This document shows, in pieces, positions 19,013 to 36,040 of a stretch of DNA of 64,000 nt. The translations under genes and the position numbers were made by a program. The first letter of the stretch is position 1. Each line of letters opens with the position of its first letter. Source of the DNA: Escherichia coli (lineage in GTDB: Bacteria; Pseudomonadota; Gammaproteobacteria; Enterobacterales; Enterobacteriaceae); NCBI RefSeq assembly GCF_030013205.1, contig NZ_CP122648.1; one strand, written 5' to 3'. A model generated the notes under the pieces. That model searched no databases. It was not told the origin of the DNA and saw only the letters and a list, made by a program, of their open reading frames with translations.

Positions 19013-19025
19013 TCTGATCTAACTA

Positions 19026-19648: not shown

Positions 19649-19909
19649 TTAATTTTGAGGTAAGGGCAAACTCATCTGATTGTTTCCTTTGTGTGAAGCT
19701 GGCAGTTCATGCCACGGGATACCTTCTGAAGAGTGAGCGCCGGAGGCGTGTTTCGATGTGAATTTATGGAAAGCTTCCAGTGTTGAGAAGCATACACCGC
19801 ATTCTAGGTTGTTACATTGGTAATACTTTTGCCGCACGGTGTTTGAATCATTTTCCGGACGACTGGTGCGGATTCGGGCAGATGCGCCACAAAGCGGACA
19901 ACGGAACAT
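19649..19909 (-). CDS. ogr: Ogr/Delta-family zinc-finger late-gene activator (P2 Ogr-like)
   Basis: MFRCPLCGASARIRTSRPENDSNTVRQKYYQCNNLECGVCFST...: CxxC ... CxxxxC pattern and spacing of P2 Ogr. Confidence 0.8.
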   Translation of the reverse strand: MFRCPLCGASARIRTSRPENDSNTVRQKYYQCNNLECGVCFSTLEAFHKFTSKHASGAHSSEGIPWHELPASHKGNNQMSLPLPQN

Positions 19910-20119: not shown

Positions 20120-20434
20120 GTGGTTGCTGATCATGAATATTTGTATTGGAAGATAATTGCAATGAGCGAAAGAGTGTTTGAGAAAGAACTATATTCTGAA
20201 TGGGTTATACGCAATAGTCTATATTGGATGACTCCGCTTACTCGATGGAAACTCCATGAAGACGTTTCCCACTGGATAATCTCTTTTGAAAACGATAATC
20301 CCAAATTCCTTTATGAATTCGATAGGCTGCTTAATGATTACTCTTTGCGAGAAAAGCTACAGCATAAAACAGGGGCGTTGAGAGACTCTATTGTCCATAA
20401 AGTGCTTCGCAGTGTTGATGAGAGGCTTTCATAA
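20120..20434 (+). CDS. hxsD: His-Xaa-Ser system protein HxsD (LLNDYxLRE-motif protein)
   Basis: 104-aa ORF containing ...FDRLLNDYSLREKLQHK...; stop overlaps hxsB start (TAATG); true start may be the internal ATG near 20162. Confidence 0.7.
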   Translation: MVADHEYLYWKIIAMSERVFEKELYSEWVIRNSLYWMTPLTRWKLHEDVSHWIISFENDNPKFLYEFDRLLNDYSLREKLQHKTGALRDSIVHKVLRSVDERLS

Positions 20435-21822
20435 TGGAATTGATGCCATTTAATTTTGACAGATTGCCTAATGGACAGGTGTTTATAAGCAACCTTGCAG
20501 GTTTTCATCATTTCATTGGTGAGCAAGACCTTATTGATCTTTCTGATGAGCGAATTAGTTCGGAGCAATCAAACGTGCTAGAAAGTAAGCTTTTCATAAC
20601 CAGTGAAAGCTCATCTGCTATAACTCCCTATGCTTTAAGTTCTGCTTTTGCAAAACGATTGATGAATGAACTGGCTGTCAGGCCAATTTTCATGATTGTA
20701 CCCACATTACGTTGTGACCATACATGCAAGTATTGCCAGGTTAGTAGAGCTTCTGTTAATGCCTCAGGTTACGACCTAAATCCTGAGCTCATCCCCGATA
20801 TTATTTCGGCTATTAAAAAACTATCAACGCCACCTTACAAAATAGAGATACAGGGTGGGGAGCCTCTCTTGCGGTTTGATTTAATTCAGAACATCTATGA
20901 TCAATGTGCTGAAACGCTGGGAAGAACCAATTTTGAGATGGTGGTGGCATCAAGTCTGTCTGTCTTGAATGAGGATATGATTGAATGGTCGAGAGACCGG
21001 AACATAACGTTCTCTGTGTCGCTTGATGGTGAGGAAGTTGTTCACAACAGTAATCGAATTCTTGGTCGTGGGCTTGCGTACAGTAGAACAGTGTCAGGGG
21101 TAGAGGCTATCAAACACTCTTTAGGTGCTGGCCGCGTTGCAACGGTTACTACAGTTACTAAAGAGCTTATCAGACGTCCTGAATCGATTGTTCAGGCTCA
21201 CTTGTCTCTTGGGCTCAAGGACATGTTTATCCGACCTGTTAGTCCCTATGGGTTTGCACAAAAAGCTTCTTTCACCTTTTCTATGGACGAATACTTCAGC
21301 TTCTATGCCTCGTTGATAGATGAAATCCTTAAGATTAATAATGAAGGGATAAGGGTTGTGGAACATTCGGCCTCCATTCATCTGAAAAGGATCTTCAATC
21401 CCGGTTTTAGTGGCTATGCGGATTTAAAGTCTCCAAGTGGAGTCGTGCTTAACAGTATTCTTTTCAATTATGACGGTCGAGTATATGGTAGCGATGAGAG
21501 CCGTATGTTGCAGAAGGTGAATCCTGAAACGGAGTTCAGTGCGGGTGAAGTTAAGACGCTATCATTTTCTGATAGTCCTTACTATAACGCAGTATTGACT
21601 TCATCGTTCAATTTTGCTCTGCCAGGTTGTGATACATGTGCATATCAACCATTTTGTGGTTCAGATCCATGCCAGAACATAAGTGTACAGGGTGAGCCTG
21701 TCGGCGATAGGAGTCGTTCAACGTTTTGTCAATATCACAAGGGGATGTTCAGGTATCTGATGAACTGCATCTCAGAGGGTGGTTCGAAGGCTGAGATGCT
21801 AAAAGGATGGGCATATGTCTGA
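20434..21822 (+). CDS. hxsB: Radical SAM / SPASM-type maturase, first of the pair (HxsB-like)
   Basis: 462 aa; CxxxCxxC in ...PTLRCDHTCKYCQVS...; C-terminal Cys cluster ...LPGCDTCAYQPFCGSDPCQNI...; overlaps the neighbouring genes. Confidence 0.8.
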   Translation: MELMPFNFDRLPNGQVFISNLAGFHHFIGEQDLIDLSDERISSEQSNVLESKLFITSESSSAITPYALSSAFAKRLMNELAVRPIFMIVPTLRCDHTCKYCQVSRASVNASGYDLNPELIPDIISAIKKLSTPPYKIEIQGGEPLLRFDLIQNIYDQCAETLGRTNFEMVVASSLSVLNEDMIEWSRDRNITFSVSLDGEEVVHNSNRILGRGLAYSRTVSGVEAIKHSLGAGRVATVTTVTKELIRRPESIVQAHLSLGLKDMFIRPVSPYGFAQKASFTFSMDEYFSFYASLIDEILKINNEGIRVVEHSASIHLKRIFNPGFSGYADLKSPSGVVLNSILFNYDGRVYGSDESRMLQKVNPETEFSAGEVKTLSFSDSPYYNAVLTSSFNFALPGCDTCAYQPFCGSDPCQNISVQGEPVGDRSRSTFCQYHKGMFRYLMNCISEGGSKAEMLKGWAYV

Positions 21823-22927
21823 GGTTATCAGGAACGATATCTTTCATTTTGCTTCTACAGAGAACGTGCCCACGGGGTTCTATCGGTTATGCAAACAAAA
21901 ACCAGTGAACCCTTTATTCTTTTTGCCCAATTTGCTAGTAGTTGCTGAGGGCAATAATGATGCCATTCCACCATGCTTTGATTTCTCTGTTATTAGCACT
22001 GAATTATTTGAGTCAATTGAAGATGGAGATATTGGGATAATCAACAATGGCAATATGATACGCGTTATTCTGTCACGCAAAGCCAACCATAATACTGTCT
22101 TAGTTACGGAACGCTGCAATAACTTGTGTCTGTTTTGTTCGCAGCCACCAAAGAAAATAAATGATGACTGGCTACTTACCCAATCAGCTCTTGCTATAGC
22201 TTCATTTGGCTTGAACGGAGTTGTTGGGGTCAGCGGTGGTGAACCTTTGCTATATGGGGATGACTTCCTTCACTTCATTGATTTTATCATCGAGAATTCA
22301 CCAGATACTGCTTTACATGTTTTAACAAACGGACGCAAATTTGCTGATACCAACTTTACACAGGAAATGGCAAAGCGAAGCAAAAAGATCAAAATCACCT
22401 TTGGTATCCCGCTCTACTCATCAAGACCACTTGTGCATGATCATCTGGTAGGGAGTGATGGCGCATTTAATGAAACGGTTAAAGGGTTAATCAATGCAGG
22501 AAACTTGGGGATTAATATCGAACTTAGAGTTATTCCTACACTGGCTAACTATACCGAATTGGATGATATCGTAGAATTCGCTGGCCGTGTGTTCTCCAAC
22601 ATCAATCAGATTTCCCTTATGGGGTTGGAGCCTATCGGTTGGGCACGAAAAAACTGGTCCACCATCTTCATTGATCACAGTAGTTATAGTGAGAAAATAA
22701 TCTCTGCCATAGACGCTGCATACAGGTCAGGCATACCTCTGACAATTTTTAATTATCCTTTGTGTTATCTTCCTGAAAGGGCTAGGGAGCTTGCTGTTCA
22801 GTCGATCTCTGATTGGAAAAATTACTATCCAAAAGAATGTGATGAATGTACTCAGAAGCCTTCCTGTGCTGGCTATTTCAGTTCCTCAAAAGGCCGTTTT
22901 CATCAATCACCGAGACCAATTTTATGA
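21815..22927 (+). CDS. hxsC: Radical SAM maturase, second of the pair (HxsC-like)
   Basis: 370 aa; CxxxCxxC in ...VTERCNNLCLFCSQP...; C-terminal Cys-rich ...CDECTQKPSCAGYF...; 8-nt overlap with hxsB, ATGA overlap with hxsA. Confidence 0.8.
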   Translation: MSEVIRNDIFHFASTENVPTGFYRLCKQKPVNPLFFLPNLLVVAEGNNDAIPPCFDFSVISTELFESIEDGDIGIINNGNMIRVILSRKANHNTVLVTERCNNLCLFCSQPPKKINDDWLLTQSALAIASFGLNGVVGVSGGEPLLYGDDFLHFIDFIIENSPDTALHVLTNGRKFADTNFTQEMAKRSKKIKITFGIPLYSSRPLVHDHLVGSDGAFNETVKGLINAGNLGINIELRVIPTLANYTELDDIVEFAGRVFSNINQISLMGLEPIGWARKNWSTIFIDHSSYSEKIISAIDAAYRSGIPLTIFNYPLCYLPERARELAVQSISDWKNYYPKECDECTQKPSCAGYFSSSKGRFHQSPRPIL

Positions 22928-23559
22928 AAAAGTTTAATTTTGCTGCTCTACTTCCGGGATTTTTGGCTCTCAACAATTCTGTATGGGCAAGCGATTCATC
23001 TACAGGAGCGAGTGATTTACCTGGTATGACTCTTAATGAGCATGATTTAGTGATAGCTCCACTTAACACGGAAGTCCCATTTTATATCGCAGGGCATCGA
23101 AGCCATAGTTCTCATAGGAGCCATAGCTCTCATAGATCCTCATCAGGTGGTGGATACTATGGTGGAAGTACCCCCTATTATCCAAAAACATACAGCTCAC
23201 CAAGTTCATCTGGTTCTTCAAGTTCAGGTGCAAGTTCCTCATCGTCCTCTTCCTCGGTGCGTGCACTTCGTTCTAACGATAATAATAGAACCACTAACAC
23301 GAGTTCTGTTGGAACTTCAGAGGTTAACCGTACGAGTAATGGGCTTGCTTCTGATGCAGAGAAACGTAAGCGATTGATTATGCGAGTTCAGTTCGCATTG
23401 CTGGACAGGGGATTTTATAACGGAAATATTGACGGCATAATGGGGCCATCCACAAGGCTGTCTGTGAAAAATTACCGCATTGCGAATGGATTACCGATTC
23501 CTGCAACTGAAACACTCGACGCACAATTGTTAAATTCTTTGAATATATTAGCTCGCTAA
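22924..23559 (+). CDS. hxsA: His-Xaa-Ser repeat protein (HxsA-like), secreted, with peptidoglycan-binding-like C-terminal domain
   Basis: From internal ATG of track ORF 22846..23559: MKKFNFAALLPGFLALNNSVWA (signal peptide), HRSHSSHRSHSSHRS (5 HXS repeats), Ser/Gly-rich linker, C-terminal ...RVQFALLDRGFYNGNIDGIMGPSTRLSVKNYRIANGLPIPATETLDAQLL. Confidence 0.8.
   Translation: MKKFNFAALLPGFLALNNSVWASDSSTGASDLPGMTLNEHDLVIAPLNTEVPFYIAGHRSHSSHRSHSSHRSSSGGGYYGGSTPYYPKTYSSPSSSGSSSSGASSSSSSSSVRALRSNDNNRTTNTSSVGTSEVNRTSNGLASDAEKRKRLIMRVQFALLDRGFYNGNIDGIMGPSTRLSVKNYRIANGLPIPATETLDAQLLNSLNILAR
23097..23135 (+). repeat. Short in-frame tandem DNA repeat encoding the His-Xaa-Ser units
   Basis: agccatagttctcatagg / agccatagctctcataga-like 18-nt units; coordinates approximate. 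Confidence 0.6.
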
Positions 23560-23861
23560 ATCTCAGTGAGGTATAAATAAAAAGCAATAAATTATATTAG
23601 TCGCGCGTCCATTATTGGTGGGTAAGTTCAAGGACCGTCTGCTCTGTGTCAGGGGCAGATGGTCAGATAAGACTGTGCCGTTTAGCCCGCTAGTACGTGT
23701 CTGGACTAATACATTTAAGAGTCTCATTCTGCTATCCATTCCGGGATTTTTGCCTCAAGCTCAAGCTGTGTGGTAAAGCCGCTGTTATCAATGGTGTGCT
23801 CGGCTTTTGCAATAATCCAGTCCTGATTATCAATCTCGCTTTTAAATCCTGTTACCGTGCC

Positions 23862-23869
23862 ATGCATTT
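23862..23869. repeat. Target-site duplication (left copy) of the IS66-family element
   Basis: ATGCATTT, repeated at ~26569-26576. Confidence 0.7.
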
Positions 23870-23899
23870 GTAAGCGACTCGTCAGAACCGTATTGATAT

Positions 23900-25471
23900 T
23901 TACTGAGAGCTCAGATCAACTTTCCAGGGCAACAGATCGCGTACCCGGTTTGCCGGCCAGTCCTGGATATGTTCAATGACGTAACGCAGCCACTTTTCTG
24001 GCTCCACATTGTTCAGACGGCATGTGCCGATCAGCGAGTACAACACCGCCGCATGTTCACCACCGCTGTCGGAACCCGCGAACATCCAGTTTTTCCGGCC
24101 TACGGCCACTCCCCGTAAGGCGTTCTCTGCGGTGTTGTTGTCGATTTCCACCCAGCCATTACTGCAGTACACGTTCAGTGCATCCCACTGTTTCAGCAGG
24201 TATGCGAACGCTTTTGCCGTATCTGAGTGACGCGACAGTGTTTTCATCTGTTGCTGTATCCAGTCATACAGTGACTGCATCAGTGGCGCGGCTCTGGCTT
24301 TTCTTGCCGCCAGACGCTGTTCTGCTGAACAGCCCCGGACCTCTGCCTCGATGGCATACAGTTCACCGATACGCTGCAGGGCTTCCGTGGTGATGTAGGT
24401 GGGCGCTCTTGCATGCACATCGTGGATTTTTCTCCGGGCATGAGCCATACACGCGGCTTCCGTTATTCTGCCGGATTCGTATAACGCCCGGTAACCACCG
24501 TAAGCATCGGCCTGAAGCACACCGCTGTAACCGGCCAGGTGATTTTGTGGATGGATACCTTTCCGGTCCGGACTGTACGCGAACCAGACCGCCGGGGGCA
24601 TCTGTGAACCGGCGTTACGGTCATCACGGACGTAGACCCACAGCCGGGCTGTCCGGGTTTTACCGCTGCCCGGCTCCTGGACCGGGACGGGGATATCATC
24701 AGCATGGACTTTACCGGGCATCAGCACATACTGGCGCAGGACGTCATACAGCGGCTCCAGCAGTTCAGCAACAGCACCTGTCCAGCGCCCCAGTGTGGCA
24801 CGGCTCAGCTCCACTCCCTGACGACGGTATATTTCTGACTGGCGGTATAACGGCAGATGGTCTGCATATTTCCCGGTGACAACATGGGCCAGAAGCCCCG
24901 CTCCGGCATAACTGCGTGCAATGGGTTTTGAAGGTACTGGTGCCTGTACGATATGGTCGCACCGGCAACAGGCCTGTTTCGGACGTTGTGTTTCGATAAC
25001 CTTAAAGGCGCTGCTGATAAGCTCCAGTTGCTCTGACACATCACATCCCAGAGAACTGAGTTCACCACCACAGGCAGGACAGCATTCCTCTTCCGGCCGG
25101 ATAACCCGGGTTTCACGGGGAAGTGAGGCCGGTAACGGTTTACGGGCTGAAGACTGGCGCAGGGCGGATGGCAGTACCGGGTCATATTGCTCACCCAGCG
25201 TTTCCGCCATTTCTTCCTGAAGTGCGCTGATTCGCTCCTGTGCTTCCTGTATCTGCCGTTCGGTTTTTGCACGAAGTTTTTCTGAGCTTTTACCGAACTG
25301 CATACGTTGCAGTTTCGCAACCAGCGCCTTCAGCCGGTTGATTTCGGAAGCATAAGCCGCCACCCGCTGTGAGAGCAGGCGGTTGTATTCAGCCATCTGG
25401 CGGATGGTGTCCTGTTGCGTCTGCAACAGTGCCCGCAGGCGGGCGTTCTCATGAGCAAGTGAGGTGTCCAT
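23900..25471 (-). CDS. IS66-family transposase TnpC
   Basis: 523 aa with leucine-zipper-like N-terminus, Cys cluster (CPACGG...CRCDH) and C-terminal ...[23 protein letters not shown]... typical of IS66 TnpC. Confidence 0.85.
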
Positions 25472-25490
25472 ATCCTCACTTTACAACGGG

Positions 25491-25838
25491 TTATATGCGG
25501 ATTCCAGCGCGTTCCGTTCGTTTCGGGTGCTTCCAGTTGATACCTTCAAGAAGCATGGATAACTGAGCCGGAGTAAGGTGCACCTTGCCGTCACGGGTGA
25601 CTGGCCAGACGAAGCGGCCCCGCTCCAGGCGTTTGGTGAAGAGGCACAGTCCGTCACTGTCAGCCCACAACACTTTTATCTGGTCACCCCGGCGTCCGCG
25701 GAAGATGAACAGGTGTCCGGAGAACGGGTCATCCTTCAGGACGTTCTGAACTTTTGATGCCAGGCCGTTAAAGCCATTTCGCATATCGGTGATACCTGCA
25801 ACCAGCCAGATACGCGAACCTGCAGGGAGAGATATCAT
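25491..25838 (-). CDS. IS66-family accessory protein TnpB
   Basis: 115 aa, ...RIWLVAGITDMRNGFNGLASKVQNVL... Confidence 0.8.
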   Translation of the reverse strand: MISLPAGSRIWLVAGITDMRNGFNGLASKVQNVLKDDPFSGHLFIFRGRRGDQIKVLWADSDGLCLFTKRLERGRFVWPVTRDGKVHLTPAQLSMLLEGINWKHPKRTERAGIRI

Positions 25839-26515
25839 CAGTGGCTGCTCCCTTTTATTTCGCGGATAAGTGTCTGTAATAACGCCGGCGTCAGTTTACC
25901 TTTAAGCCTGAGAGTTCCGGCCGGCAGAACCAGCTCACAACACAGACTGTCGGACGGTGTATTTATCTGCTCTGGTTCCTGTGCGGGGGCCGGGATTTTA
26001 TTATCCGGCTCCGGCGTTAACGTCACGGGAAGCAGTGCCGGCATATTTTTTCCGGAAGGCAGCAGGCCACCTTTCCGGTATTGATGGCGCCAGTTGAAGA
26101 GCAGGTTATCGTTGATTCCGTTTTCCCGGGCGATCTGCGCCACACAGGCTCCGGGCTGCAGTGACTGCTCCACTAAGGCGATTTTAAACTCATAAGGGAA
26201 GTTGGGCCGCCGGGGACGTTTTTTTACCACGGGGGCTTCGGATATAACGGTGCTTTCAGGACGTACGACTGGTACCGTGGAAAATTGTCCGTAAAGGCAG
26301 GCATCAAGTTCCTGCTCCGACATGCCTGCGGGCAAAGGCCACGAAAGGCCAGCTCTCCGAAAGCGCACGAACATACTACAAACTGTTGATTTTGGTACAC
26401 CCAGGCGACGCCCGGCCACAACCCGGGGTAAATGTTCTTCAAAGTGAAGACGTAAAGCTTCAGTGATCCAGGTCCGGTGTTTCATACGATAGTGTCCATT
26501 AAAAATGATGGACAT
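25838..26515 (-). CDS. IS66-family accessory protein TnpA (start uncertain; track ORF may be over-extended)
   Basis: ...RPRRPNFPYEFKIALVEQSLQPGACVAQIARENGINDNLLFNWRHQYRKGG... Confidence 0.65.
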   Translation of the reverse strand: MSIIFNGHYRMKHRTWITEALRLHFEEHLPRVVAGRRLGVPKSTVCSMFVRFRRAGLSWPLPAGMSEQELDACLYGQFSTVPVVRPESTVISEAPVVKKRPRRPNFPYEFKIALVEQSLQPGACVAQIARENGINDNLLFNWRHQYRKGGLLPSGKNMPALLPVTLTPEPDNKIPAPAQEPEQINTPSDSLCCELVLPAGTLRLKGKLTPALLQTLIREIKGSSH

Positions 26516-26568
26516 TATTTTTGTAGAGCCGGAGGAAACAGACCAGACGGTTTAAATGAGCCGGTTAC

Positions 26569-26576
26569 ATGCATTT
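26569..26576. repeat. Target-site duplication (right copy) of the IS66-family element
   Basis: ATGCATTT. Confidence 0.7.
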
Positions 26577-27266
26577 CGGGGTAGAGTTCTGCACGCCCAC
26601 GTGCCAGCGTGATGGAAAATGATGCGGCTCCGCGTTGTAGCTGCTGCCACTTTGCCGCCGCTGCGCGTCTTGCTGCCTGCTCGTTCTGATAAGTCTTGCG
26701 TAACACAAACACATTGCCTTCCGCACCTTCCATATAATCACCTTCACGGCTGCTGCTTTTCTCCTTTTTAGGTTTTGGTGGTTTGCGGCGTTTCACACTG
26801 ACTTTTTTCTTTTTCCCGTAATTAAGATCAAGCCAGTAAGCGCGTACCCCCGTATACGCTTCGCGGTCAGCAATGCGGAACTGATGGCGATCGCCGCTGT
26901 TGCGCGTGATGGCGAACGATGGCAACGGCTGGCCCTGTGCGTTCACGCCACCGCCTGGCATGATGAATAACAGATTATCGCTTTTTACCGTGGTGATTGC
27001 GCCCAGCATTTCCGCCATGCGCGTAAGGAAGGACATGTCGCTTTCTTCGGTCTGGTCGGCGTGGTCGATTTCGATATCCATCAGCATTTCGCTGATTTGC
27101 GGTTTCAGGCCGTACCGATGAGCGATGGCGGATACCACACGCTCAACGGTCACATCATGCCAGGACACCTCACGTTTAACGTTAAATTCATCCCGAAAAT
27201 CTGCGCTTCTGGCTGAAACAGTCAGCCTGTCCGGCGGTCCTTCGTGAGCGATTTCATCAACAATTA

Positions 27267-27685
27267 GACTGGCCCCCTGAATCTCCAGACAACCAATATC
27301 ACTTAAATAAGTGATAGTCTTAATACTAGTTTTTAGACTAGTCATTGGAGAGCAGATGATTGATGTCTTAGGACCGGAGAAACGCAGACGGCGTACTACA
27401 CAGGAAAAGATCGCTATTGTTCAGCAGAGTTTTGAACCGGGAATGACGGTCTCCCTTGTTGCCCGGCAACACGGTGTGGCAGCCAGCCAGTTATTTCTCT
27501 GGCGCAAGCAATACCAGGAGGGAAGTCTTACTGCTGTGGCCGCAGGAGAGCAGGTCGTTCCTGCCTCTGAACTTGCTGCTGCCATGAAGCAGATTAAAGA
27601 ACTCCAGCGCCTGCTCGGCAAAAAAACGATGGAAAATGAACTCCTTAAAGAAGCCGTTGAATACGGGCGTGCAAAAAAAGTGGAT
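27267..27685 (+). mobile_element. IS2 left-end fragment (IRL plus 5' part of insC/orfA), truncated near IS2 position ~416
   Basis: TAGACTGGCCCCCTGAATCTCCAGACAACCAATATCACTTAAATAAGTGATAGTCTTAATACTAGTTTTTAGACTAGTCATTGGAG... then Ins[57 protein letters not shown]...[10 protein letters not shown]; homology ends just after the A-run; remainder of IS2 absent. Confidence 0.8.
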
Positions 27686-30247
27686 ACAGTGCTCAGCGAA
27701 AAACAACAAAAGCTGATGCAGCAGTTAAGCACCCGGCTTGAACGCCTGAATGAATCGCGCACACGGGAAATTCAGAAAATGCGGGAGCTTGGCGGAGAGC
27801 TGAAACGCCACGGCATTTCCCTGACAGGCAGCGATAACACCATCCAGCAGGCCATCAGACGCACCGAACAGTACAACAACCAGCTTGAACGCGAACGGCA
27901 GGCGCTTGCGCGTGTAACACGGGCGCGTGAGCGGTATTCGCGCGCGCAGGAAACAGCGGGAAAACTGAAAACAGGTGGTGCGCTGGCAATTGGTGCGGCA
28001 ACGGCGGGCGGCTATGCTGCCGGGCGTTTTTTGCAGCCTGCGATCGGGTTCGGCAAAGAGATGTCCCGCGTTCAGGCACTGACGCGAATCGACAAAAACA
28101 GCCCGCAGTTTAAGGCGCTGCGTGAGCAGGCGTTAAAACTTGGCTCTGAAACACAGTTTACTGCGAGTGATGCCGCCAGTGGGCAGAGCTTTCTGGCAAT
28201 GGCTGGTTTTACTCCGCAGGCCATTCAGGCCGCATTGCCCGGTGTTCTTAATATGGCGCTGGCAGGTGGCGTCGAACTCGGCGAGACGGCTGATATAGGC
28301 TCCAATATCCTCACACAGTTCAACCTGACAGCCGATCAAATGGACCGTGTTGGCGATACGCTGACAGCAGCATTCACCCGGACCAATACTGATTTACGCG
28401 CGCTGGGCGAAACCATGAAGTATACCGGTCCGGTTGCCGCAAAACTTGGTATCAGTCTTGAAGAAGCGGCGGCCATGGCCGGGATGCTTGCCAATAATGG
28501 TCTTCGCGGAAGCGATGCTGGTACGGCCATGCGCGCAAGTCTGTCCCGCCTTGCATCACCGCCAAAAGCTGCGGCTGATGCACTGAAAGAGCTGGGGGTG
28601 TCAGTTGCTGACGCCAGAGGCAAAATGCGCCCGATGGAGGATGTGCTGCTTGATCTCTATAAGGCGACACAAAAATACGGACAGGTGGACCAGGTTTCCT
28701 TCTTCAAGGACATCGCCGGAGAAGAGGCGTTCGTTGGTTTGCAGACGCTTGTTGCGGCGGCTGGTTCAGGAGAGCTGCAAAAACTGACCAGAGAATTGCA
28801 GGGGGCAAGGGGAGAGGCCGATCGCGTCGCAAAAGTAATGGCCGATAATCTTGATGGGGACCTGAAAAATCTCGACAGCGCATGGGAAGGTCTTCGTATT
28901 CGCATCAGTGATCTGGTTGACGGTCCGCTGCGTTCTGTCACGCAGTGGCTCACGCGGGTGCTTGAAAAAATCACCTCGCTGGCGCAGGCCCATCCGGTAC
29001 TGACGCGCCAGCTACTGATAGCAGGCGGTGCGTTGCTGGCAATGACTGCAACGATTGGCTCGTTGTCGCTGGTTATTGGGGTGCTTTACGGGAAGCTGGC
29101 CACCCTGCGTCTTGGTTTTGACATTCTTACCCGGTCAATGAATGTCGTCAGGGTGTTGCCTGCGCTGTGGGGAATGGTGACGGGTTCCGTTTCTTTACTG
29201 GGAGGCGCCATCGGGGCGTTGTTCAGTCCGGTTGGTCTTATCGTGGCTGCGCTTGCCGGAGCTGCCGTTCTTATCTGGAAATACTGGGATCCCATCAGGG
29301 CATTTTTTGCCGGGGTGTTCAGCGGGATTATGGAAAGGCTGACCCCGTTGCGCGAAACCTTTGAACGGTTTGGTCCTGTTTTTGACACAATCGGAAGCGG
29401 GATCAGCCAGGTGTTTAACTGGTTTAAATCGCTGCTGTCACCGATGGAGTCCAGCAAGGAAACGCTGGATAAATGTACCAGTGCTGGCGAGATATTCGGT
29501 AACGTTCTTGGCGGTGCGTTACAGCTTGTTCTGACACCTGCAAAAATGCTACTGGATACGCTGGCGTGGATACTTGAAAAACTTGGCGTCCTTCCGGATG
29601 AAGCGGAAAGGGCGCGCAAGAAAATCGAAGACGCACAGCGTGCGGCCATTCTTCAGGACAAGGTTGCCTTGCTTCAGGGTGACCTGGCGAAAATCAATCC
29701 GCCGAAGCCTGTGGAAAATGGCAATGGCACCGGAGGTAATAAACCCAAAGACAACAAACCGCTCACAGACAGCAATACCGGGACGCTACGCAGACTCAGC
29801 AAAATTGCTGATAACACAGGTAAGCTGGTTGATGAGACGAAAAAACGCATTGGCCCCGGCGATATTGTCTTTAAGAACCTGCCCCGCGCACTTGCTGTTC
29901 GTGGAGAGTGGCAGGAGCGGAAGATTGCGCAGGTCAGTAAGCCTGCCCCCGCAATTAATATCACACCCGTGGTCCCGGCTCCGCTGCCTCCGGCGCTGGT
30001 CCCTGTTGTTGCGGCCAGCTCCCGCCCGGTGGCGGAGGCCATACGATCTCCAGTGGCATCAGTTCCTGTAACTTCCCGTAACCGGGAGCCTGTTGCCTCC
30101 GGATTTGGTGGTGAAATTCATGTTCATCTGCATAACGTTGTTACGCAGAATCCCCGCGAACTGGCGAAACTGGTCGGTGAAATGGTCAGGGCAGAAATGG
30201 AACGGCGCGCCCGTGCCGGGCGTGGCAGTTTTTACGATAAAGATTGA
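27356..30247 (+). CDS. Chimeric ORF: IS2 InsC N-terminal ~110 codons fused in frame to a P2 gpT-like tail tape measure protein
   Basis: Track ORF 27311..30247 (978 aa); after ...EYGRAKK the sequence continues as tape-measure-like (..[71 protein letters not shown]..). Confidence 0.75.
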
Positions 30248-30253
30248 GGAGTC

Positions 30254-30748
30254 ATGGCCATGATGATGATCTACGGCATGTTTGTTTTTGAGCTGCGCAC
30301 GCTGCCGCATCAGCAGTTACAGCAAAACAAAAGCTGGCGGCATGTGAAAAATGAACGCGTTAACCGTTCAGCAAGCTGGCAGTATATCGGTGCAGGTGAT
30401 GATCGCATCGTTCTTTCTGGTATGCTTTATCCTGAAATTACAGGTGGCGAAGTGTCGCTGTCGCTGCTGACCACGCAGGCGTATACAGGACGCCCCTGGC
30501 CTCTTATTGATGGCGTCGGGCAGATTTACGGCATGTATGTCCTGACCGAAACGAATACGACCCGTTCCGAGTTTGATCGCTACGGTAAGGCGAAAAAGAT
30601 AGAATTTTCACTGACCCTTGAACGCTGTGATGAGGATTTGCGGGAGCGCCTGCAATCCTCATCGTTCAGCGATATGCTGTCCGGCTTCAAAGATAAAGTG
30701 ACATCATCCCTTAACAGCGCGGCCAGTTCAGTTAAAGGGCTGTTCTGA
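30254..30748 (+). CDS. P2 gpU-like tail protein
   Basis: MMMIYGMFVFELRTLPHQQLQQNKSWRHVKNERVNRSASWQYIGAGDDRIVLSGMLYPEITGGEVSL... resembles P2 gpU (MMVLGMFVFELRT...). Confidence 0.8.
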   Translation: MAMMMIYGMFVFELRTLPHQQLQQNKSWRHVKNERVNRSASWQYIGAGDDRIVLSGMLYPEITGGEVSLSLLTTQAYTGRPWPLIDGVGQIYGMYVLTETNTTRSEFDRYGKAKKIEFSLTLERCDEDLRERLQSSSFSDMLSGFKDKVTSSLNSAASSVKGLF

Positions 30749-30918
30749 TTTAATGCTGGCCACTCATACCCTCATACCTGGTAATAAGTGGCCAGTCTTA
30801 ACACTCACCATTTGATTGCACCAGTGTTAACGATTTGTTACTGGACATCAGACACGCTGGATAGCCAGTAGAAACATACCATAAAAATTATTACAATAAT
30901 TGGTCACATGATTATCTT

Positions 30919-31482
30919 ATGCTGAATAATAGAGATATGAATATTAATGAACTTAAAGATTGTATTCACTATGAAGTAATCGGTAGCGAGCGTCCTTTCT
31001 CCTGGCGAAAGGCAATTGTTCGCGCAATAAAACATAGAAGAGTTCGTTATTTATTTTGGTGGCGCATAGCCAAATACCTTTTTGATAAAGGCGGATACTG
31101 TCGGAAGATTGCGGGGAAAATAGAACGTTTCATTCTTGATAAATATAATGTAACAGTCCCTTTAACTGTAAATATAGGGAAAGGCTTTGATATTTCTTAT
31201 CTCAACAGTGTTGTTATCGGTCACAAAGTAACAATCGGTGAAAATTGTTCAATAAAACCAGGGGTAACTATTGGGCTGCGTGGTGATTTTAATGATATGG
31301 ATATTGTTATAGGACATAATGTGACCATTGGTTGTAATGCCACCATTCTTGGTGGCAAAGTGCGTATAGGAAACAATGTCACAATAGGTGCTCATGCATT
31401 GGTATTGCATGATATTCCAGATGATTCAACATTCATCACTAAATTTCAGTCTGAAGTTATCTGCTCGTCCTCCCGCACATAA
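30919..31482 (+). CDS. Hexapeptide-repeat (left-handed beta-helix) acetyltransferase, AT-rich cargo gene
   Basis: Repeats of [LIV]-G-x-x-x-x-I-G ([22 protein letters not shown]...[33 protein letters not shown]); low GC; 3' end overlaps tfa 3' end. Confidence 0.75.
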
Positions 31483-32063
31483 CCCTGATTCATCAGCTCT
31501 GGCCATACGATATCCGGAGCTGTACTGGTGTCAATTCTACTCACTAATACTCTGTATTTTCTCCAGGAATCCAGTTGTGAATTTTCCTCGTTTGTTGCTA
31601 TTTCAAGATTAACTGCATCCTGCAGAATTGCGATGTTATCTGTTGCTTCCTGGATCAACCTTGCCTTTTTCTCTTCCGCTTCCCGTATCCGAAACAGTTT
31701 TTCTGCTTCCTCATCCTTCACCCAGGATACGCCGTCCCACTTCTGATACTCCCCTGCTGGCGACAACCAGGTGACATTCTCTGGTAGCGGTCCGGGTTCA
31801 GAAATAAACAACGCGTCCCCCGATGCCACGTCATAGACCGTTTTACCACGATGGTCTTCAACAATATTCCACGATTCATTTTCACTGTTAAAAACTGCCA
31901 CAAAGCCAGCAGGAATTTCCGGTGGGGCGATATCTGTAGAATTGGCTGGCAGCCCTGTATGAGGTGGAATATATGCGTCACCTTCACCAATAAACTCATT
32001 AGTTCCGGCCAGCAGGTTATAAATTTTTACAGTACGTGATTGTTCACTCATTCTGAATGCCAT
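31446..32063 (-). CDS. Tail fibre assembly chaperone (Tfa; P2 gpG-like)
   Basis: 205 aa immediately downstream of, and start/stop-overlapping with, the tail fibre gene; Tfa-like sequence. Confidence 0.75.
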
Positions 32064-33724
32064 TATGCAAGCCTCACAATATAATTAAATGCGATGTTTT
32101 TAACGGTGTTTTCCGCGTTACCAGCAGCGTTAACGGTGATGGTGTGTCCATGTGAACCAATCGCAACAGAGTGCGTATGAGCGCCAATACCAACAGTGTG
32201 TGCATGTGCCCCAGCACTTGTAGCGGTACCTGATACTGAGTGGGTATGTGCGCCAGAAGAAGGCACAGTTCCATTCCCCACCACCGTGCCACTTGATGCA
32301 CCATCAAGCCAGTCGAAATTCATACCTCCACTGTTTGGTCTCCTTAATGGAACGGTATGTGTATGTGCGCCAGCACTATTTGCAGTACCAGATACATTGT
32401 GGGTATGTGCACCAGTGTTATTCGTTGATTTAGTACCGTAATCAAACGACGATGTGGTTTTCGTACCCAAATCCGTACTGGATGCGCTGGCACTGTGGGT
32501 GTGCGATTTAATGCCATCCTGTTCCTGAGACAATACGGCCCGACCACTGGCGGGTTTGCCCTTGATTGTCCAGCCGCGCATATCTGGAATAACACCAGAA
32601 GGATAGGCAATAGCCAGTTTCGGATATGCTGCCTTATCAAACGTCTGCCCCTGCATGATTGCATAACCTGCAGGTGGCGTATCTGATGGCCACGGCAGCG
32701 GAACACCTGGCGGAAACGCTTCAATATTTGCCGAGCCGTCAAATTTTACGCCGTTAATTGTCCTTGCCGTTTTCAGCTTTGTTGCTGTAGCAGCATTGCC
32801 GGATAGTTCGCCAGAAAGACCACCGCTGAATGTCTGTTTCGCCGCCCATGTCTGAGCTTCGTCGATAATTGGCACACGTCTTGTCGTAATCGTGCGGCTT
32901 CCCGGATTTCCTGAAATGCGAACCATAAAAAAGCGGTAATTCGCTTTACTTGCAGTGCTGCGCCATACATGCATTGAGCGCCCCGTACCGAAATCATCAC
33001 TCGGACCAACTGCGATGTTTATCAGGTTGCCATCAATGACGCCCCAGTCCATACCGTCGGGAATATTGGTCATGTTATCAAGCCGAACGGTTATCAGACT
33101 GCCCGGCACAAAATCGTAGGTCTGCCAGTCCAGGCTGGTGAGTTTTGCCACTGCGCCACCGATCCCCATATTCAGGGGCAACGAAAAGGAGTTATACACT
33201 TCTCGCCATTCGGTCCATGTGCTCCCGGCGTAGACGCGCTCAAAAGTGCGCCCCTGTGTGGTTTCTGATTTCCCTGTGGTTGTGTAACGCTGCCAGACAG
33301 ATACACCATCAAAACGCCTGATTACTTCCAGTATCCCAAGCAATGTCGCCCCAGCAGCGTCCAGCATCGGACCGTTTGTCGCCTTTCCTGTAACACTGTA
33401 AATACCGGGGTCGGTTAGAACATTCAAATCACCTTCGTAATAACGGCTCTCTGACTGATGACCGACTCTTAACCACGGTTCCCACTGCGGATTTGATGCA
33501 TCCCAGCTTGCCGCAAGGCAGCGAACGTACATATTCCCACGACGAGTGGTATAACGTTGCGTTCTTCCATAATTCCCGCCTTCGAGGATCTCAAGCGTCC
33601 CCTGAGCAAAGCCGCCTTCCTCTGGATAATTGCGTTCATATGAAGCTATAGCCGAGCTACTGTTACGCCATAAACCAAGATGCTCAGCGGCTCCAAGCGT
33701 ATTCAGGTCTATAGTCGTACTCAA
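32063..33724 (-). CDS. Phage tail fibre protein
   Basis: 553 aa; ...[41 protein letters not shown]... and C-terminal His-rich repeats [38 protein letters not shown]. Confidence 0.8.
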
Positions 33725-34000
33725 AGGGCGGGTAGTTCAAGAAGCTGTTCCGGAGCGTTTGTTGATGATCCCGATCTGCATAAAAATATTCTTATTTGCT
33801 ATCCGTATGGTAACTATGAATATGACAATATTATCTATGTTGAAAAGAAAACTAATGCATTGGGCGTTGTTGTGACGTATGCACAGACTGCACGAGACGA
33901 TGCTGAATAAGATACTACAGAGATAGTCCACTTTTTTGTTTATTTGTCGGGATAAAAACAAATTACCCCGACTCACCATGTATTAATCTTCCGCTTTAAG

Positions 34001-34384
34001 TTAGTCTTGTAGCTGCGCTGTCCTGCTATGCAGCAAAGCGGCGTACTTTAATGCGTCCTGTGCTTTCTGGAATTTAAGTGCATAGTCAGTGGCGATTTTT
34101 TCCAGTTCAGCGATTCGGTTGTCTTTGGTTTCCAGCCAATCAAGTAGCGCCAATACTTCAGGATCCCCGACATCCAACACTGTTACGCGTGATTTTTCAT
34201 AATGTTCGTCGGCAAGAGTTCGACCAATTTTGAAATCTCCATCATCACCATAACCGGAGCAGCCATAAACAACCTGTGCTCCAGATATTCGCTGAATTGA
34301 CATTTCTTCGCCGCAAATAGGGCATTTTGGTACTGGTGCAGGTGAATAACGTTCACGTAATGCCTGATAGTTGATTTTGCTCAT
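34001..34384 (-). CDS. Hypothetical phage protein with CxxC zinc-ribbon-like motif
   Basis: 127 aa, ...PVPKCPICGEEMSIQRISGAQVVYGCSGYG...; no family recognised. Confidence 0.4.
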   Translation of the reverse strand: MSKINYQALRERYSPAPVPKCPICGEEMSIQRISGAQVVYGCSGYGDDGDFKIGRTLADEHYEKSRVTVLDVGDPEVLALLDWLETKDNRIAELEKIATDYALKFQKAQDALKYAALLHSRTAQLQD

Positions 34385-34642
34385 TAAGTCGCTCTTCTTG
34401 TTTATGTTCTGAGATGGAGATCAGGGCGAACTCGCCCTGACGTTGTGTTATTCAGGAAATAACGCCCTGATATTTCCGGCCATCTGACTGGTTATCTGTG
34501 CGGTTGGTACTGGCTGTGACAGGGGGCGTTCTGTCCTGGTTTGTGTCACTGATAACGCCTCATCGTCAGCCCATGCAGCCAGTCGGTAAGCCTCTGCCGG
34601 ATTCATTTTCAGAAGTGCCAGCCCGGCCAGAAAAGCCACGCG

Positions 34643-35221
34643 TTGGCCGCTTTTGCGGGCTTCCGGTGTAAGGCTGTCCAGCCAGGCGCATGCTTCGCTT
34701 TCGTTCTTGACGGCCGCAGGCTTCAGATAGAAACTTATCTGAGTAAGTCTGAATGTGTTCAGTTGCTGGATGCACTGGCTGAAAATCCCGATGAACGGCT
34801 GGCTGTCGAAATCCTTCTGTCGACCGGGGCGCGATGGGGCGAGGTAGCGGTACTGGAGCAGCGCCGTGTTCTTCATTGTCGAATCACTTTTTCAAAAACG
34901 AAGAACAGCAAAAACCGTACCGTTCCTATTTCTGAAAGCCTGTTTGAAAAGATCAAAAAACGGGGCGGGAAACTGGTGTTTCCGACGCTGGATTATCCAT
35001 TGGTTCGCGATGTCATCAAAACGGTCGCATCTGATGTTCCTGACGGCCAGGCTGTTCATGCGCTGCGCCACACCTTCGCCAGTCATTTCATGATGAACGG
35101 CGGCAATATTCTGACGCTCCAGAAAATTCTGGGGCACGCAAAGATTCAGACAACGATGATTTATGCCCATCTTGCGCCGGATTACTTGCAGGATGCGGTG
35201 AGATTTAATCCAATAGCTTGA
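34643..35221 (+). pseudogene. int: Tyrosine recombinase (phage integrase) C-terminal catalytic-domain fragment
   Basis: ...LSTGARWGEVA...NRTVPIS...HALRHTFASHFMMNGGNILTLQKILGHAKIQTTMIYAHLAPDYL (R, HxxR, catalytic Y); ~190 codons versus ~330 for full length; N-terminal domain not found in frame. Confidence 0.7.
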
Positions 35222-35231
35222 AGGTAGGAAA

Positions 35232-35615
35232 ATGAAAGATATTGAACATTCAGGGGAAATGGAAAAGAAAAAACGGGAGTTTATTAAAAAACTGGAATCG
35301 ATAACGCCAAGAGAATTCTTCCGTTTTTTAAATGAAAAAAACGTCACTGTGGTTTGCCTTGGGTGCGGACTGAAAGATACCCAGATAACTGCCACTACAG
35401 GTAAGTTAAATCTCCAACAACTCCTGGATGGTGAAAAAGGGGAAGAGTTTATGACGTACTTCAGGCTTGAACCAGGTCACCCAGGTGATAGTGATGCGAA
35501 TTATTACTACAAATCTTTTTGTGAGAACTGCGGTTATATAACTATGCATGCAGTGACTCCGGTATTGAACTGGTTGGGATCGCAAAAAAACCAGGAAGGG
35601 TCAGGTGATGAATGA
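35232..35615 (+). CDS. Hypothetical protein with two CxxC pairs (putative zinc ribbon)
   Basis: 127 aa; ...VVCLGCGLKD... and ...FCENCGYITMH...; start preceded by aggtaggaaaATG. Confidence 0.45.
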   Translation: MKDIEHSGEMEKKKREFIKKLESITPREFFRFLNEKNVTVVCLGCGLKDTQITATTGKLNLQQLLDGEKGEEFMTYFRLEPGHPGDSDANYYYKSFCENCGYITMHAVTPVLNWLGSQKNQEGSGDE

Positions 35616-35907
35616 GTATACTTATATCACGGGTTTTTCCATTCCGTATCCAGGAGGAATTCAGGTGAGCAATCGCAGAAGTCAGGCAAGTCGTGATGAG
35701 TTCGCTCTTGATAGCCGTGTTGCACGAATGGAGTCTGATATCTCATACATCAAGAGAGATATTGAAGAGCTGAAGAGCGATCTCAAGGATGTGAGAGGCG
35801 ATATTGATAAGATACGCACAACAGATTTCAGGCTCATGTTTGGTGCGTTGATTACTACAGCCTTGGGGTTAGCTGGCTTAATGGCGAGAGGTTTTCACTG
35901 GATTTAA
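35605..35907 (+). CDS. Hypothetical coiled-coil protein with C-terminal transmembrane helix
   Basis: 100 aa; ...ESDISYIKRDIEELKSDLKDVRGDIDKIRTTDFRLMFGALITTALGLAGLMARGF; overlaps previous ORF by 11 nt. Confidence 0.45.
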   Translation: MMNEYTYITGFSIPYPGGIQVSNRRSQASRDEFALDSRVARMESDISYIKRDIEELKSDLKDVRGDIDKIRTTDFRLMFGALITTALGLAGLMARGFHWI

Positions 35908-36015: not shown

Positions 36016-36040
36016 GGCCGCTCTGCGGCCTTTTTTCTTT
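36016..36040 (+). repeat. Right copy (attR core) of the island-flanking direct repeat; doubles as the terminator-like hairpin upstream of btuC
   Basis: ggccgctctgcggccttttttcttt, identical to ~19030-19054. Confidence 0.75.

What the first reader, a model, noticed from the sequence alone, without database searches (positions are those of the whole stretch)
23724..33724. Tail module is scrambled: T-U on the opposite strand to D, ogr, G and H, with sheath/tube, baseplate, capsid and replication genes absent
In P2 the order is H-G-FI-FII-E-T-U-D-ogr on one strand. Here ogr, D, tfa (G) and the tail fibre are on the minus strand, while T and U are on the plus strand adjacent to the IS2 fragment. 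No FI, FII, E, baseplate, capsid, terminase or replication genes are present, and the integrase lacks its N-terminal half. The element therefore looks non-inducible and immobile, yet it retains intact-looking cargo (hxs, hok-like, acetyltransferase), which suggests selection on the cargo rather than the phage.
Basis: partly seen in the sequence, partly recalled or inferred. Interest (0 to 1): 0.4.

Follow-up and report, generated by a model that had tools for sequence, protein, structure and literature searches.

The report
Decayed P88-like prophage, not scrambled
This is the worn-down remnant of a common P88-type (P2-family) prophage: its odd-looking gene directions are the normal layout of that phage type, and it lost most of its genes through three deletions and two insertion-sequence hits, which is ordinary prophage decay.

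Summary
"Scrambled" is wrong. The window is a porcine ETEC chromosome carrying a 16,986-bp island between ihfA and btuC, flanked by a perfect 25-bp att repeat. It is colinear, with no inversion, with an intact 36.6-kb prophage at the same site in other E. coli. That prophage and the plaque-forming phage P88 (Xuanwuvirus) both have D(-) | FI-FII-E-T-U(+) | cargo | G-H(-). The divergent D/FI junction is contiguous in 1,354 of 5,426 complete E. coli genomes. The tail proteins here are 94-99% identical to P88 and only 34-46% to P2.

The real lesions:
- an ISCro1 insertion in D with an 8-bp target duplication;
- a 421-bp IS2 left end joined to a 2.9-kb deletion (D 5' end to T 5' end);
- a 13-kb deletion (H 5' end to beyond Q);
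- a 7-kb loss of the early region and int 5' half, which took two steps.

Sister strains preserve the intermediate stages. The element cannot make particles, replicate or excise by itself. The hxs cargo belongs to a published anti-phage system, but evidence for selection on cargo is only suggestive. A second, separate defective P88-like prophage sits 700 kb away. Verdict: ordinary, already known.

The parts
19030..19054 (.). attL core: 25-bp perfect direct repeat GGCCGCTCTGCGGCCTTTTTTCTTT, which is the ihfA terminator
   Evidence: repeat family D6. Joining 18700-19054 to 36041-36400 reproduces, at 100% identity, the uninterrupted ihfA-btuC site present in 5,120 of 5,426 genomes.
19318..19458 (-). 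hok/gef-family toxin gene (cargo next to attL)
   Evidence: Pfam HOK_GEF. 100% identical to the E1739 prophage copy and 95.7% to P88's.
19649..19909 (-). ogr (late-gene activator), intact
   Evidence: Pfam Ogr_Delta. 100% identical to E1739, 96.5% to P88, 38% to P2 Ogr.
20162..23559 (+). hxsD-hxsB-hxsC-hxsA, the His-Xaa-Ser system, carried as cargo between ogr and D
   Evidence: All four proteins exceed the NCBIfam equivalog cut-offs. HxsA has a 22-residue signal-like N-terminus and five HxS repeats. GC is 0.39-0.44 against 0.52-0.57 in the phage genes. The family has published anti-phage activity (PMC13128918).
23724..23869 (-). 3' end of gene D (last 48 codons)
   Evidence: tblastn D residues 320-367; blastn colinearity.
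23870..26568 (-). ISCro1 (IS66 family, 2,699 bp; tnpA, tnpB and the transposase gene) inserted in D. The 8-bp target duplication ATGCATTT lies at 23862-23869 and 26569-26576.
26569..27264 (-). Middle of gene D (residues about 88-327); the N-terminal 87 codons are missing
   Evidence: Pfam Phage_GPD.
27265..27685 (+). IS2 left end (nt 1-421 of 1,331: terminal repeat plus the 5' part of orfA). It is flush against D on the left and joined to T on the right at a 2-bp microhomology.
   Evidence: 94% to a complete IS2; Pfam HTH_Tnp_1.
27686..30247 (+). Tape-measure gene T lacking its first ~81 codons. In this strain it is fused in frame to IS2 orfA (ORF 27311-30247).
30260..30748 (+). Gene U, full length, with one lineage-specific amino-acid change
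   Evidence: Pfam Phage_P2_GpU.
30937..31482 (+). Hexapeptide-repeat acetyltransferase, cargo in the position occupied by Z/fun in P2
   Evidence: Pfam Hexapep; PHROG 2154, unknown function; below every NCBIfam cut-off; 100% identical to E1739.
31446..32063 (-). Tail-fibre assembly gene G (tfa), full length
   Evidence: Pfam Caudo_TAP.
32063..33735 (-). Tail-fibre gene H, C-terminal 557 codons only (the N-terminal 328 are missing)
   Evidence: Pfam Collar and Phage_fiber.
33736..34012 (+). 3' end of a hypothetical gene from the Q-to-ead variable region. This is the right side of the 13-kb deletion (5-bp microhomology GGTAG).
   Evidence: 100% identical to F344 31186 onward; PHROG 1416.
34013..34384 (-). 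ead/Ea22-like gene. The same short form is present in the otherwise near-complete F344 prophage.
   Evidence: Pfam Ead_Ea22.
34448..34739 (-). StbB-like partition gene, lacking its first 6 codons
   Evidence: Pfam Plasmid_stab_B; PHROG 2515.
34740..35221 (+). Integrase C-terminal half (residues 163-323 of 323), joined to stbB at a 4-bp microhomology (TATC)
35232..35907 (+). Two small hypothetical genes between int and attR (phage-borne, function unknown)
36016..36040 (.). attR core, the second copy of the 25-bp repeat

Best explanation
Window 19030-36040 is a defective prophage of the P88 type (genus Xuanwuvirus, family Peduoviridae). A tyrosine integrase placed it in the ihfA terminator.

Its strand pattern, D(-) | FI-FII-E-E'-T-U(+) | cargo | G-H...(-), is the native architecture of this phage type. 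It is not a rearrangement.

The intact 36.6-kb phage was reduced to 17 kb by ordinary events:
1. ISCro1 transposed into D, leaving an 8-bp duplication.
2. IS2 inserted near the 5' end of D. An illegitimate deletion then ran from inside IS2 into T, removing the D 5' end, the D/FI promoter region, FI, FII, E/E' and the T 5' end.
3. A 13-kb microhomology deletion removed the H 5' end, I, J, W, V, S, R, the lysis genes, X, L, M, N, O, P and Q.
4. A 2.5-kb deletion removed the early operon, cox and C.
5. In this sub-lineage only, a 4.6-kb deletion removed parM, A and the 5' half of int.

What is shown: the junctions, the event order (1-4 precede 5) and the gene content. What is inferred: the element cannot be induced, replicate, lyse, assemble or excise on its own.

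What is left that could still act is the cargo (hok, the HXS anti-phage operon, an acetyltransferase, two small ORFs) plus ogr, U and G.
For: - Colinearity with the intact same-site prophage of E1739: five blocks in the same order and orientation at 96-99.9% identity.
- The same strand pattern occurs in E1739, F344 and phage P88.
- The D/FI divergent junction is contiguous in 1,354 of 5,426 complete E. coli genomes.
- Tail proteins are 94-99% identical to P88 and 34-46% to P2. P2 itself has the one-strand order. P88 is inducible and forms plaques (PMC5285337).
- Junction sequences show the target duplication and the microhomologies.
- Decay ladder: ETEC1701, W13-16 and P15-25 carry lesions 1-4 but keep parM, A and a full int. 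The window type differs from them by one 4.6-kb deletion. ETEC4068 took a different, overlapping route.
- The H deletion junction is shared by 14 complete genomes and the stbB|int junction by 7.
- The att repeat and an exact empty site were found.
- 29 of 47 reference proteins have no hit anywhere in the window.
Against: - Nothing contradicts the architecture argument.
- The order among lesions 1-4 is not resolved, because no genome with only a subset was found.
- It cannot be decided whether IS2 entered D first or sat in T and deleted leftward.
- Immobility is inferred from gene content, not tested. Both att cores and the adjoining arms are intact, so excision in trans by a co-resident phage with the same integrase specificity cannot be excluded.
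- The truncation point of H coincides to within 3 bp with a deletion endpoint in a second prophage of the same genome. Simple independent deletions do not explain that.
Confidence: 0.93

Rival explanations
1. One reading: a P2-order tail module was scrambled, with T-U flipped by an IS-mediated inversion, as part of the decay.
For: T-U lies next to an IS2 fragment, and P2 has all these genes on one strand.
Against: Intact relatives and P88 have the same orientation with no IS present. The window is colinear with them. There is only one truncated IS2 piece and no inverted partner. The proteins are P88-type, not P2-type. The D/FI divergent junction is present in 1,354 genomes.
Confidence: 0.02
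2. The 'missing' genes are not lost. They lie elsewhere in the genome as part of the same element, either through mis-assembly or because a rearrangement split one prophage in two.
For: ETEC1748 and its six closest relatives carry FI, FII, E, a full T, O, P, Q, A, cox, C and int homologues about 700 kb away. One deletion endpoint in that locus coincides with the H truncation point here.
Against: That locus is a separate P88-like prophage next to pdxB. It has its own hok, ogr, D, T, U, G and stbB, and an integrase only 47% identical. Its D/FI 5' region is 2.3% diverged, its early region resembles P88, and it contains no reciprocal junction. The junctions in the window recur identically in 7-14 independent complete assemblies. 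Even together, the two loci lack baseplate, tail-completion, lysis, terS, L and X genes.
Confidence: 0.02
3. The remnant persists because its cargo is selected: a prophage domesticated into a small defence and addiction island (HXS blocks incoming phage DNA; hok resists loss of the left end). This adds to the best explanation rather than competing with it.
For: - The HXS family has published broad anti-phage activity (PMC13128918), and all four Hxs proteins meet equivalog cut-offs.
- Seven independent deletions in this clade all miss hok, hxs and the acetyltransferase. A uniform-placement simulation gives P = 0.005.
- Seven substitution events fall in 6.15 kb of structural remnants and none in 4.09 kb of cargo. 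My binomial arithmetic gives 0.03.
Against: - The cargo set was defined after the fact. ETEC4068 lost the two small ORFs next to int.
- The genomes were found with a query that contains the acetyltransferase. For the hok-hxs block alone, my arithmetic gives about 0.1.
- Three of the seven substitutions cluster within 180 bp of H in one strain and may be a single recombination event (my arithmetic then gives 0.08).
- ETEC6333 probably has one hxs mismatch.
- The whole remnant is about 0.1% diverged from intact phages, so intact ORFs are expected without selection.
- 27 of the 45 genomes with this hxs allele have it next to an intact D-FI junction, so its presence here is inheritance from the phage.
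- Expression was not tested.
Confidence: 0.35
4. The retained tail genes form a working tail-derived device (tailocin-like).
For: U and G are full length; large parts of T and H remain.
Against: There is no sheath, tube or baseplate (V, W, J, I), no R or S, and no lysis genes. D and T are truncated and H lacks its baseplate-attaching N-terminal 328 residues.
Confidence: 0.01

Closest known systems
Escherichia phage P88 (KP063541; Xuanwuvirus, Peduoviridae), induced from a porcine K88 E. coli
   Same: Same gene order and strands: H, G | variable slot | U-T-E'-E-FII-FI on the opposite strand | D | ogr | hok. D, T, U, ogr, hok and StbB are 94-99% identical in protein.
   Different: P88 is complete and viable. 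It has no hxs: D and ogr are 43 bp apart. It carries a tail-fibre invertase module where this element has an acetyltransferase. Its H/G alleles differ. Its integrase is only 52% identical, and the att core used here is absent from the P88 record.
Intact same-site prophages in E. coli E1739 (NZ_CM180506.1) and F344 (NZ_OY754421.1)
   Same: Same attB (ihfA terminator), same att core, same cargo (hok, hxsDBCA, acetyltransferase, two small ORFs), 99.9% nucleotide identity over shared parts.
   Different: They keep all 47 genes (36.6 kb). F344 has its own independent ISCro1 insertion in D, 213 bp from the one here.
   Same: Same family and the same set of homologous tail genes. A cargo slot follows G (Z/fun in P2). 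ogr lies next to att.
   Different: In P2, FI-FII-E-T-U-D form one operon on the same strand as H-G. Here the FI-U block is natively inverted and D is separate. Protein identity is only 34-46%.
Defective (cryptic) prophages of E. coli in general. From my own knowledge, not tested here: the K-12 P2-like remnant ogrK/yegZ, and the picture of prophage decay by deletion and IS insertion.
   Same: att-flanked, truncated integrase, IS insertions, microhomology deletions, retained accessory genes.
   Different: Here the intermediates are preserved in sister strains, so the order of the late steps can be read directly.
HXS anti-phage system (Li et al. 2026, Nat Commun, PMC13128918)
   Same: hxsD-B-C-A order, two radical SAM enzymes, HxsA with a signal peptide, five HxS repeats and a peptidoglycan-binding-like C-terminus.
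   Different: The tested operon came from E. coli strain MEM, and I did not measure its identity to this allele. HxsA is 211 residues here and 214 in the paper. Activity of this copy is untested.

Membership tests
P2-type (Peduovirus) tail gene order | FI-FII-E-T-U-D transcribed as one unit on the same strand as H-G | tested here: not met
   P2 annotation compared with the window and its intact relatives, where FI-U is opposite to D, G and H.
P2-type (Peduovirus) tail gene order | Close protein similarity to P2 tail proteins | tested here: not met
   D 46%, T 34%, U 46%, Ogr 38%.
P88-like phages (Xuanwuvirus) | Gene order D | FI..U inverted | variable slot | G, H, with ogr and hok beyond D | tested here: met
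   P88 annotation. The window is colinear with intact relatives that show this order.
P88-like phages (Xuanwuvirus) | High identity of conserved proteins to P88 | tested here: met
   D 96-98%, T 94%, U 99%, Ogr 96.5%, Hok 96%, StbB 95%. The 11.2-kb tail region of the intact relative matches P88 over 64% of its length at 94% nucleotide identity.
P88-like phages (Xuanwuvirus) | Genus-level whole-genome nucleotide similarity to P88 (ICTV-style threshold) | not tested
   A remnant cannot be scored this way, and I did not compute whole-genome identity of E1739 or F344 against P88.
Defective prophage | Flanked by att direct repeats at a site that is empty in other genomes | tested here: met
   25-bp perfect repeat; exact empty site in 5,120 of 5,426 genomes.
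Defective prophage | Loss of genes essential for the lytic cycle | tested here: met
   29 of 47 reference proteins have no hit in the 64-kb window; D, T, H and int are truncated.
Defective prophage | No excision, replication or particles on induction | not testable with these tools
   Needs mitomycin C induction and attP/attB PCR.
IS-mediated inversion | Inverted segment bracketed by two IS copies in inverted orientation | tested here: not met
   There is a single truncated IS2 piece, and ISCro1 is a simple insertion with a target duplication. No segment is inverted relative to intact relatives.
HXS anti-phage system | Four genes hxsD-hxsB-hxsC-hxsA, each matching its family model | tested here: met
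   TIGR03976 91 bits (cut-off 50), TIGR03978 558 (370), TIGR03977 398 (268), TIGR03979 160 (122).
HXS anti-phage system | HxsA with an N-terminal signal peptide, five HxS repeats and a peptidoglycan-binding domain | tested here: inconclusive
   The signal-like N-terminus and the run HRSHSSHRSHSSHRS were read from the translation. Pfam PG_binding_1 scores 22.4 bits, just under its cut-off of 23.
HXS anti-phage system | Protection against phage infection | not testable with these tools
   Shown only for the strain MEM operon in PMC13128918.
Tailocin / contractile tail device | Sheath, tube and baseplate genes present | tested here: not met
   No hit for FI, FII, V, W, J or I.

The most novel reading that the evidence does not exclude
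The most novel reading has three parts.

1. The interval between D and ogr in P88-type prophages may be an undescribed accessory-gene or defence hotspot. It holds hxs, GmrSD-, PIN-, DUF3800-, DUF2971-, YecA- or ParA-type genes, or nothing.

2. In E. coli, one of the three hxs alleles travels only at this spot. Decayed remnants like this one would then look 'chromosomal' to prophage predictors.

3. The porcine ETEC/O139:H1 clade may show, step by step, a prophage being whittled down to a defence-plus-hok island. The early region was lost twice independently, and one breakpoint is shared to within 3 bp between two co-resident prophages, which hints at a site-specific break or inter-prophage recombination.
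Probability: 0.3. Interest if true: 0.35.

Novelty: already known. Interest (0 to 1): 0.15.

Why it matters
The main value is as a correction. Comparing a P2-family prophage with P2 alone makes a normal P88-type layout look rearranged, and about a quarter of complete E. coli genomes carry that layout.

The locus is also a clean, datable example of prophage decay, because the intermediates survive in sister strains.

It shows that the recently described HXS anti-phage operon can be phage cargo that outlives its phage. That matters for how 'prophage-borne' and 'chromosomal' defence systems are counted.

Tried and rejected
- **Inversion:** looked for an inverted segment or paired IS copies. None found.
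- **Defence models (PADLOC) on the cargo:** only weak generic radical-SAM matches to pVip, and no hits for the other cargo proteins. This library predates the HXS paper.
- **RNA families (Rfam) across the island:** no Sok or other phage RNA. The only hit was STnc540 at the ihfA 3' end.
- **P88 att site:** the 25-bp core is absent from P88, so P88 uses another site.
- **Split-element hypothesis:** found a second prophage, but it has its own ends and no reciprocal junction.
- **Shared H breakpoint:**
  - No IS sits at that point in the 60 best genomes carrying this H allele.
  - A short hairpin spans the point, but its folding energy is not unusual (z about -0.9), and there are no Chi sites nearby.
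  - No repeat homology exists between the two ends of the second prophage's deletion.
  - The coincidence is left unexplained.
not meaningful. There are only about 10 substitutions in the whole clade.
- **Housekeeping:** my first scripts failed because several loci are stored in one file.

Full report
**Where the window comes from.** The 10-kb region matches the chromosome of porcine enterotoxigenic E. coli ETEC1748 (NZ_CP122719.1) and 11 other complete swine or wild-boar genomes at 99.9-100% identity over its full length. In the RefSeq annotation the phage-like genes lie between ihfA (window 18713-19012) and btuC (36099-37079). The rest of the window is ordinary core chromosome, katE to ydiJ.

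**Island limits.** A perfect 25-bp direct repeat, GGCCGCTCTGCGGCCTTTTTTCTTT, lies at 19030-19054 and 36016-36040. Joining the two flanks at this repeat gives a 715-bp sequence. It occurs at 100% identity in other strains and is uninterrupted in 5,120 of 5,426 complete E. coli genomes. The insert is therefore 16,986 bp, and the repeat, which is the ihfA terminator, is the att core.

**Checking the observation.**
- I translated all 47 genes of an intact relative and searched the whole 64-kb window. 29 have no hit, including FI, FII, E, E', every baseplate, head, terminase and lysis gene, A, ParM, C and the early genes.
- Int keeps residues 163-323 of 323. D keeps about 88-367, split by an IS. 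T keeps 79-935. H keeps 329-885.
- So the factual content of the finding holds.

**Why "scrambled" is wrong.**
- Human ETEC strain E1739 carries an apparently complete 36.6-kb prophage at the same ihfA-btuC site with the same att core.
- Its order is hok(-) ogr(-) hxsDBCA(+) D(-) | FI FII E E' T U(+) | acetyltransferase(+) | G H I J W V S R, lysis genes, X L M N O(-) | P Q(+) | ead stbB parM A, early genes(-) | C int and two small ORFs(+).
- The window aligns to it in five blocks, all in the same order and orientation, at 96-99.9% identity. No segment is inverted.
- Phage P88 (KP063541, genus Xuanwuvirus) has the same strand pattern. It is mitomycin-inducible and forms plaques (PMC5285337).
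- A 1-kb probe spanning the D 5' end, the divergent intergenic region and the FI 5' end is contiguous in 1,354 of 5,426 genomes.
- P2 does have everything on one strand. However, the proteins here are 34-46% identical to P2 and 94-99% to P88.
The FI-U block is natively opposite to D, G and H in this phage type.

**The real lesions**.
1. ISCro1, 2,699 bp, is inserted in D with the 8-bp duplication ATGCATTT.
2. At 27265 an IS2 terminal repeat abuts D exactly. Only nt 1-421 of IS2 remain, joined to T codon ~81 at a 2-bp microhomology. The relative's 2,946 bp between these points are gone (D 5' 270 bp, promoter region, FI, FII, E/E', T 5' 242 bp).
3. At 33735/33736, H is joined through the 5-bp microhomology GGTAG to the 3' end of a small gene beyond Q. 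About 13 kb are lost.
4. At 34739/34740, stbB is joined through TATC to the middle of int. About 7 kb are lost relative to intact phages.

**Order of events from sister strains.**
- ETEC1701, the O139:H1 strains W13-16 (wild boar) and P15-25, and ETEC6333/6334 share lesions 1-3. They also have a 2.5-kb deletion of the early operon, cox and C, but they keep parM, a full-length A and a full-length int.
- The window differs from ETEC1701 by one extra 4.6-kb deletion and a handful of point changes. The 7-kb loss was therefore two steps.
- ETEC4068/4075 took another route from the same ancestor: an IS2 between ogr and hxsD, an internal T deletion, a G/H deletion, and a different deletion from A to the second small ORF.
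- Neither right-end deletion can be derived from the other. The replication/integration region was lost twice independently.
- The H junction is present in 14 complete genomes and the stbB|int junction in 7. That rules out mis-assembly.
- F344, an otherwise near-complete same-site prophage, has its own ISCro1 in D, 213 bp away and in the same orientation.

**Are the missing genes elsewhere?**
- A search with the deleted FI-T segment found a 99.2% copy in ETEC1748 and its six closest relatives about 700 kb away.
- It belongs to a second P88-like prophage next to pdxB. That prophage has its own hok, ogr, a different D-ogr cargo gene, D, FI, FII, E, T, U, the same acetyltransferase and G alleles, N', O, P, Q, stbB, parM, A, cox, C and an integrase only 47% identical.
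- It is itself defective, lacking most of H, plus I, J, W, V, S, R, the lysis genes, X, L and M. It has no reciprocal junction with the window element.
- The two are separate elements. Even together they lack baseplate, tail-completion, lysis and small-terminase genes.
- P15-25 has yet another deleted P88-like prophage at serS-dmsA.

**An unexplained detail.**
- The right end of the second prophage's H deletion and the truncation point of H in the window fall at the same position to within 3 bp. One keeps ...GGGCGGGTAG and the other keeps CTGATTGAG....
- This position is the boundary between two knob-like repeats of the fibre, residues 328|329.
- I found no IS there in other genomes, no unusual hairpin energy and no Chi sites.
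- The second prophage is nearly identical to the window type from mid-FI to G but 2.3% diverged in D and FI 5'. Co-resident P88-like prophages evidently exchange segments, and the coincidence may be connected to that.

**The cargo.**
- All four Hxs proteins pass the NCBIfam equivalog cut-offs.
- HxsA has the signal-like N-terminus and five HxS repeats described for the HXS anti-phage system. In the published study that system blocked DNA entry of 110 of 113 tested coliphages (PMC13128918).
- hxs occurs in 151 of 5,426 genomes as three alleles. The 45 genomes with this allele (at least 99% identity) equal in number the 45 genomes whose match covers at least 80% of the hok-ogr-hxs-D query. I take these to be the same genomes, but I did not cross-check the two lists.
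- In 27 genomes hxsA, an intact D and FI are contiguous. I did not cross-check this list against the 45 either.
- A 91%-identical allele sits in an ssrA-linked mobilisable island.
- In other P88-like prophages the D-ogr interval is empty or holds unrelated genes: DUF3800, GmrSD, PIN, DUF2971, YecA, ParA and others. The published P2 hotspot is a different one, gpA-gpQ (PMC9122126).

**Is the cargo under selection?**
- The remnant differs from intact relatives by about 0.1%, so intact ORFs prove nothing and dN/dS has no power.
- A simulation placing the seven observed deletions at random gives P = 0.005 that none touches hok, hxs or the acetyltransferase. However, the cargo set is post hoc, and the genomes were ascertained with a query containing the acetyltransferase. 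For hok-hxs alone my arithmetic gives about 0.1.
- Within the clade there are seven substitution events in 6.15 kb of D, T, U, G and H remnants and none in 4.09 kb of cargo. My binomial arithmetic gives 0.03, or 0.08 if three clustered H changes in W13-16 count as one event.
- This is suggestive only. hok, if active, would itself oppose loss of the left end (inference from the known behaviour of hok/sok loci).

**Verdict.** This is a real but ordinary feature: a decaying prophage of a known, common type.

Noticed in passing
window 19910-23723; other genomes: In P88-like prophages the interval between D and ogr varies. It is about 40 bp in P88 and empty in roughly half of the sampled E. coli prophages. 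Elsewhere it holds 1-4 kb of unrelated genes: hxsDBCA, DUF3800, GmrSD, PIN, DUF2971, YecA, ParA, an alpha/beta hydrolase. It looks like an accessory or defence hotspot distinct from the published gpA-gpQ hotspot of P2-like phages.
   Followed up: partly
window 20162-23559: hxs occurs in 151 of 5,426 complete E. coli genomes as three alleles (at least 99%, about 91% and about 75% identity). 45 genomes carry this allele, and the same number match at least 80% of the hok-ogr-hxs-D query. At least 15 of them sit in IS-disrupted or deleted prophages that a prophage predictor could miss. This bears on the published statement that 77% of E. coli hxs operons are not prophage cargo (PMC13128918).
   Followed up: partly
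NZ_CP122719.1 about 1606150-1631455 (L018): A second, separate and also defective P88-like prophage lies next to pdxB in the same genome. It shares near-identical T-U-acetyltransferase-G with the window element but has its own D, early region and integrase.
   Followed up: yes
window 33735/33736 and L018 27453/27454: The H truncation point in the window element and one H deletion endpoint in the second prophage coincide to within 3 bp (GGGTAG^CTGATTG, residues 328|329 of H, a boundary between two knob-like repeats). Unexplained.
   Followed up: partly
window 27311-30247: IS2 orfA is fused in frame to the truncated tape-measure gene, giving a 978-codon ORF. A 1-bp difference at 27673, in the A-run of the IS2 frameshift site, puts the fusion out of frame in ETEC1701, P15-25 and W13-16.
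   Followed up: partly
window 23862-26576; F344 (L008) 5915-8629: ISCro1 entered gene D twice independently, in this clade and in F344. The two insertions are 213 bp apart, in the same orientation, each with its own 8-bp target duplication.
   Followed up: partly
window 18954-19110: There is an Rfam hit to the enterobacterial sRNA STnc540 at the ihfA 3' end (41.9 bits, gathering score 38). It overlaps the attL core, so the prophage integrates in the terminator of this 3'-UTR RNA and restores it with its own copy of the core.
   Followed up: no
equivalent of window 20048-20052 in ETEC4068/4075 (L009 2278-3608): A complete IS2 sits between ogr and hxsD in two sister strains, directly upstream of the hxs operon. 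It could silence or drive the operon.
   Followed up: no
window 4368-5037, 5827-6620, 9418-11316: hxpB and yniA are annotated as frameshifted pseudogenes in this strain. A full-length T3SS effector gene, espL1, lies in a low-GC stretch (about 0.40) between yniD and thrS.
   Followed up: no
NZ_CP080233.1 about 1817490-1845542 (L019): Strain P15-25 has a third P88-like prophage at serS-dmsA with the same U, acetyltransferase and G alleles and a full-length H. It is also deleted, from J to O. Several decaying copies of this phage type co-reside in the porcine lineage.
   Followed up: no
window 1001-2000: The lowest-GC kilobase of the window (0.34) corresponds to ydjO, an ordinary core-genome hypothetical gene.
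   Followed up: no
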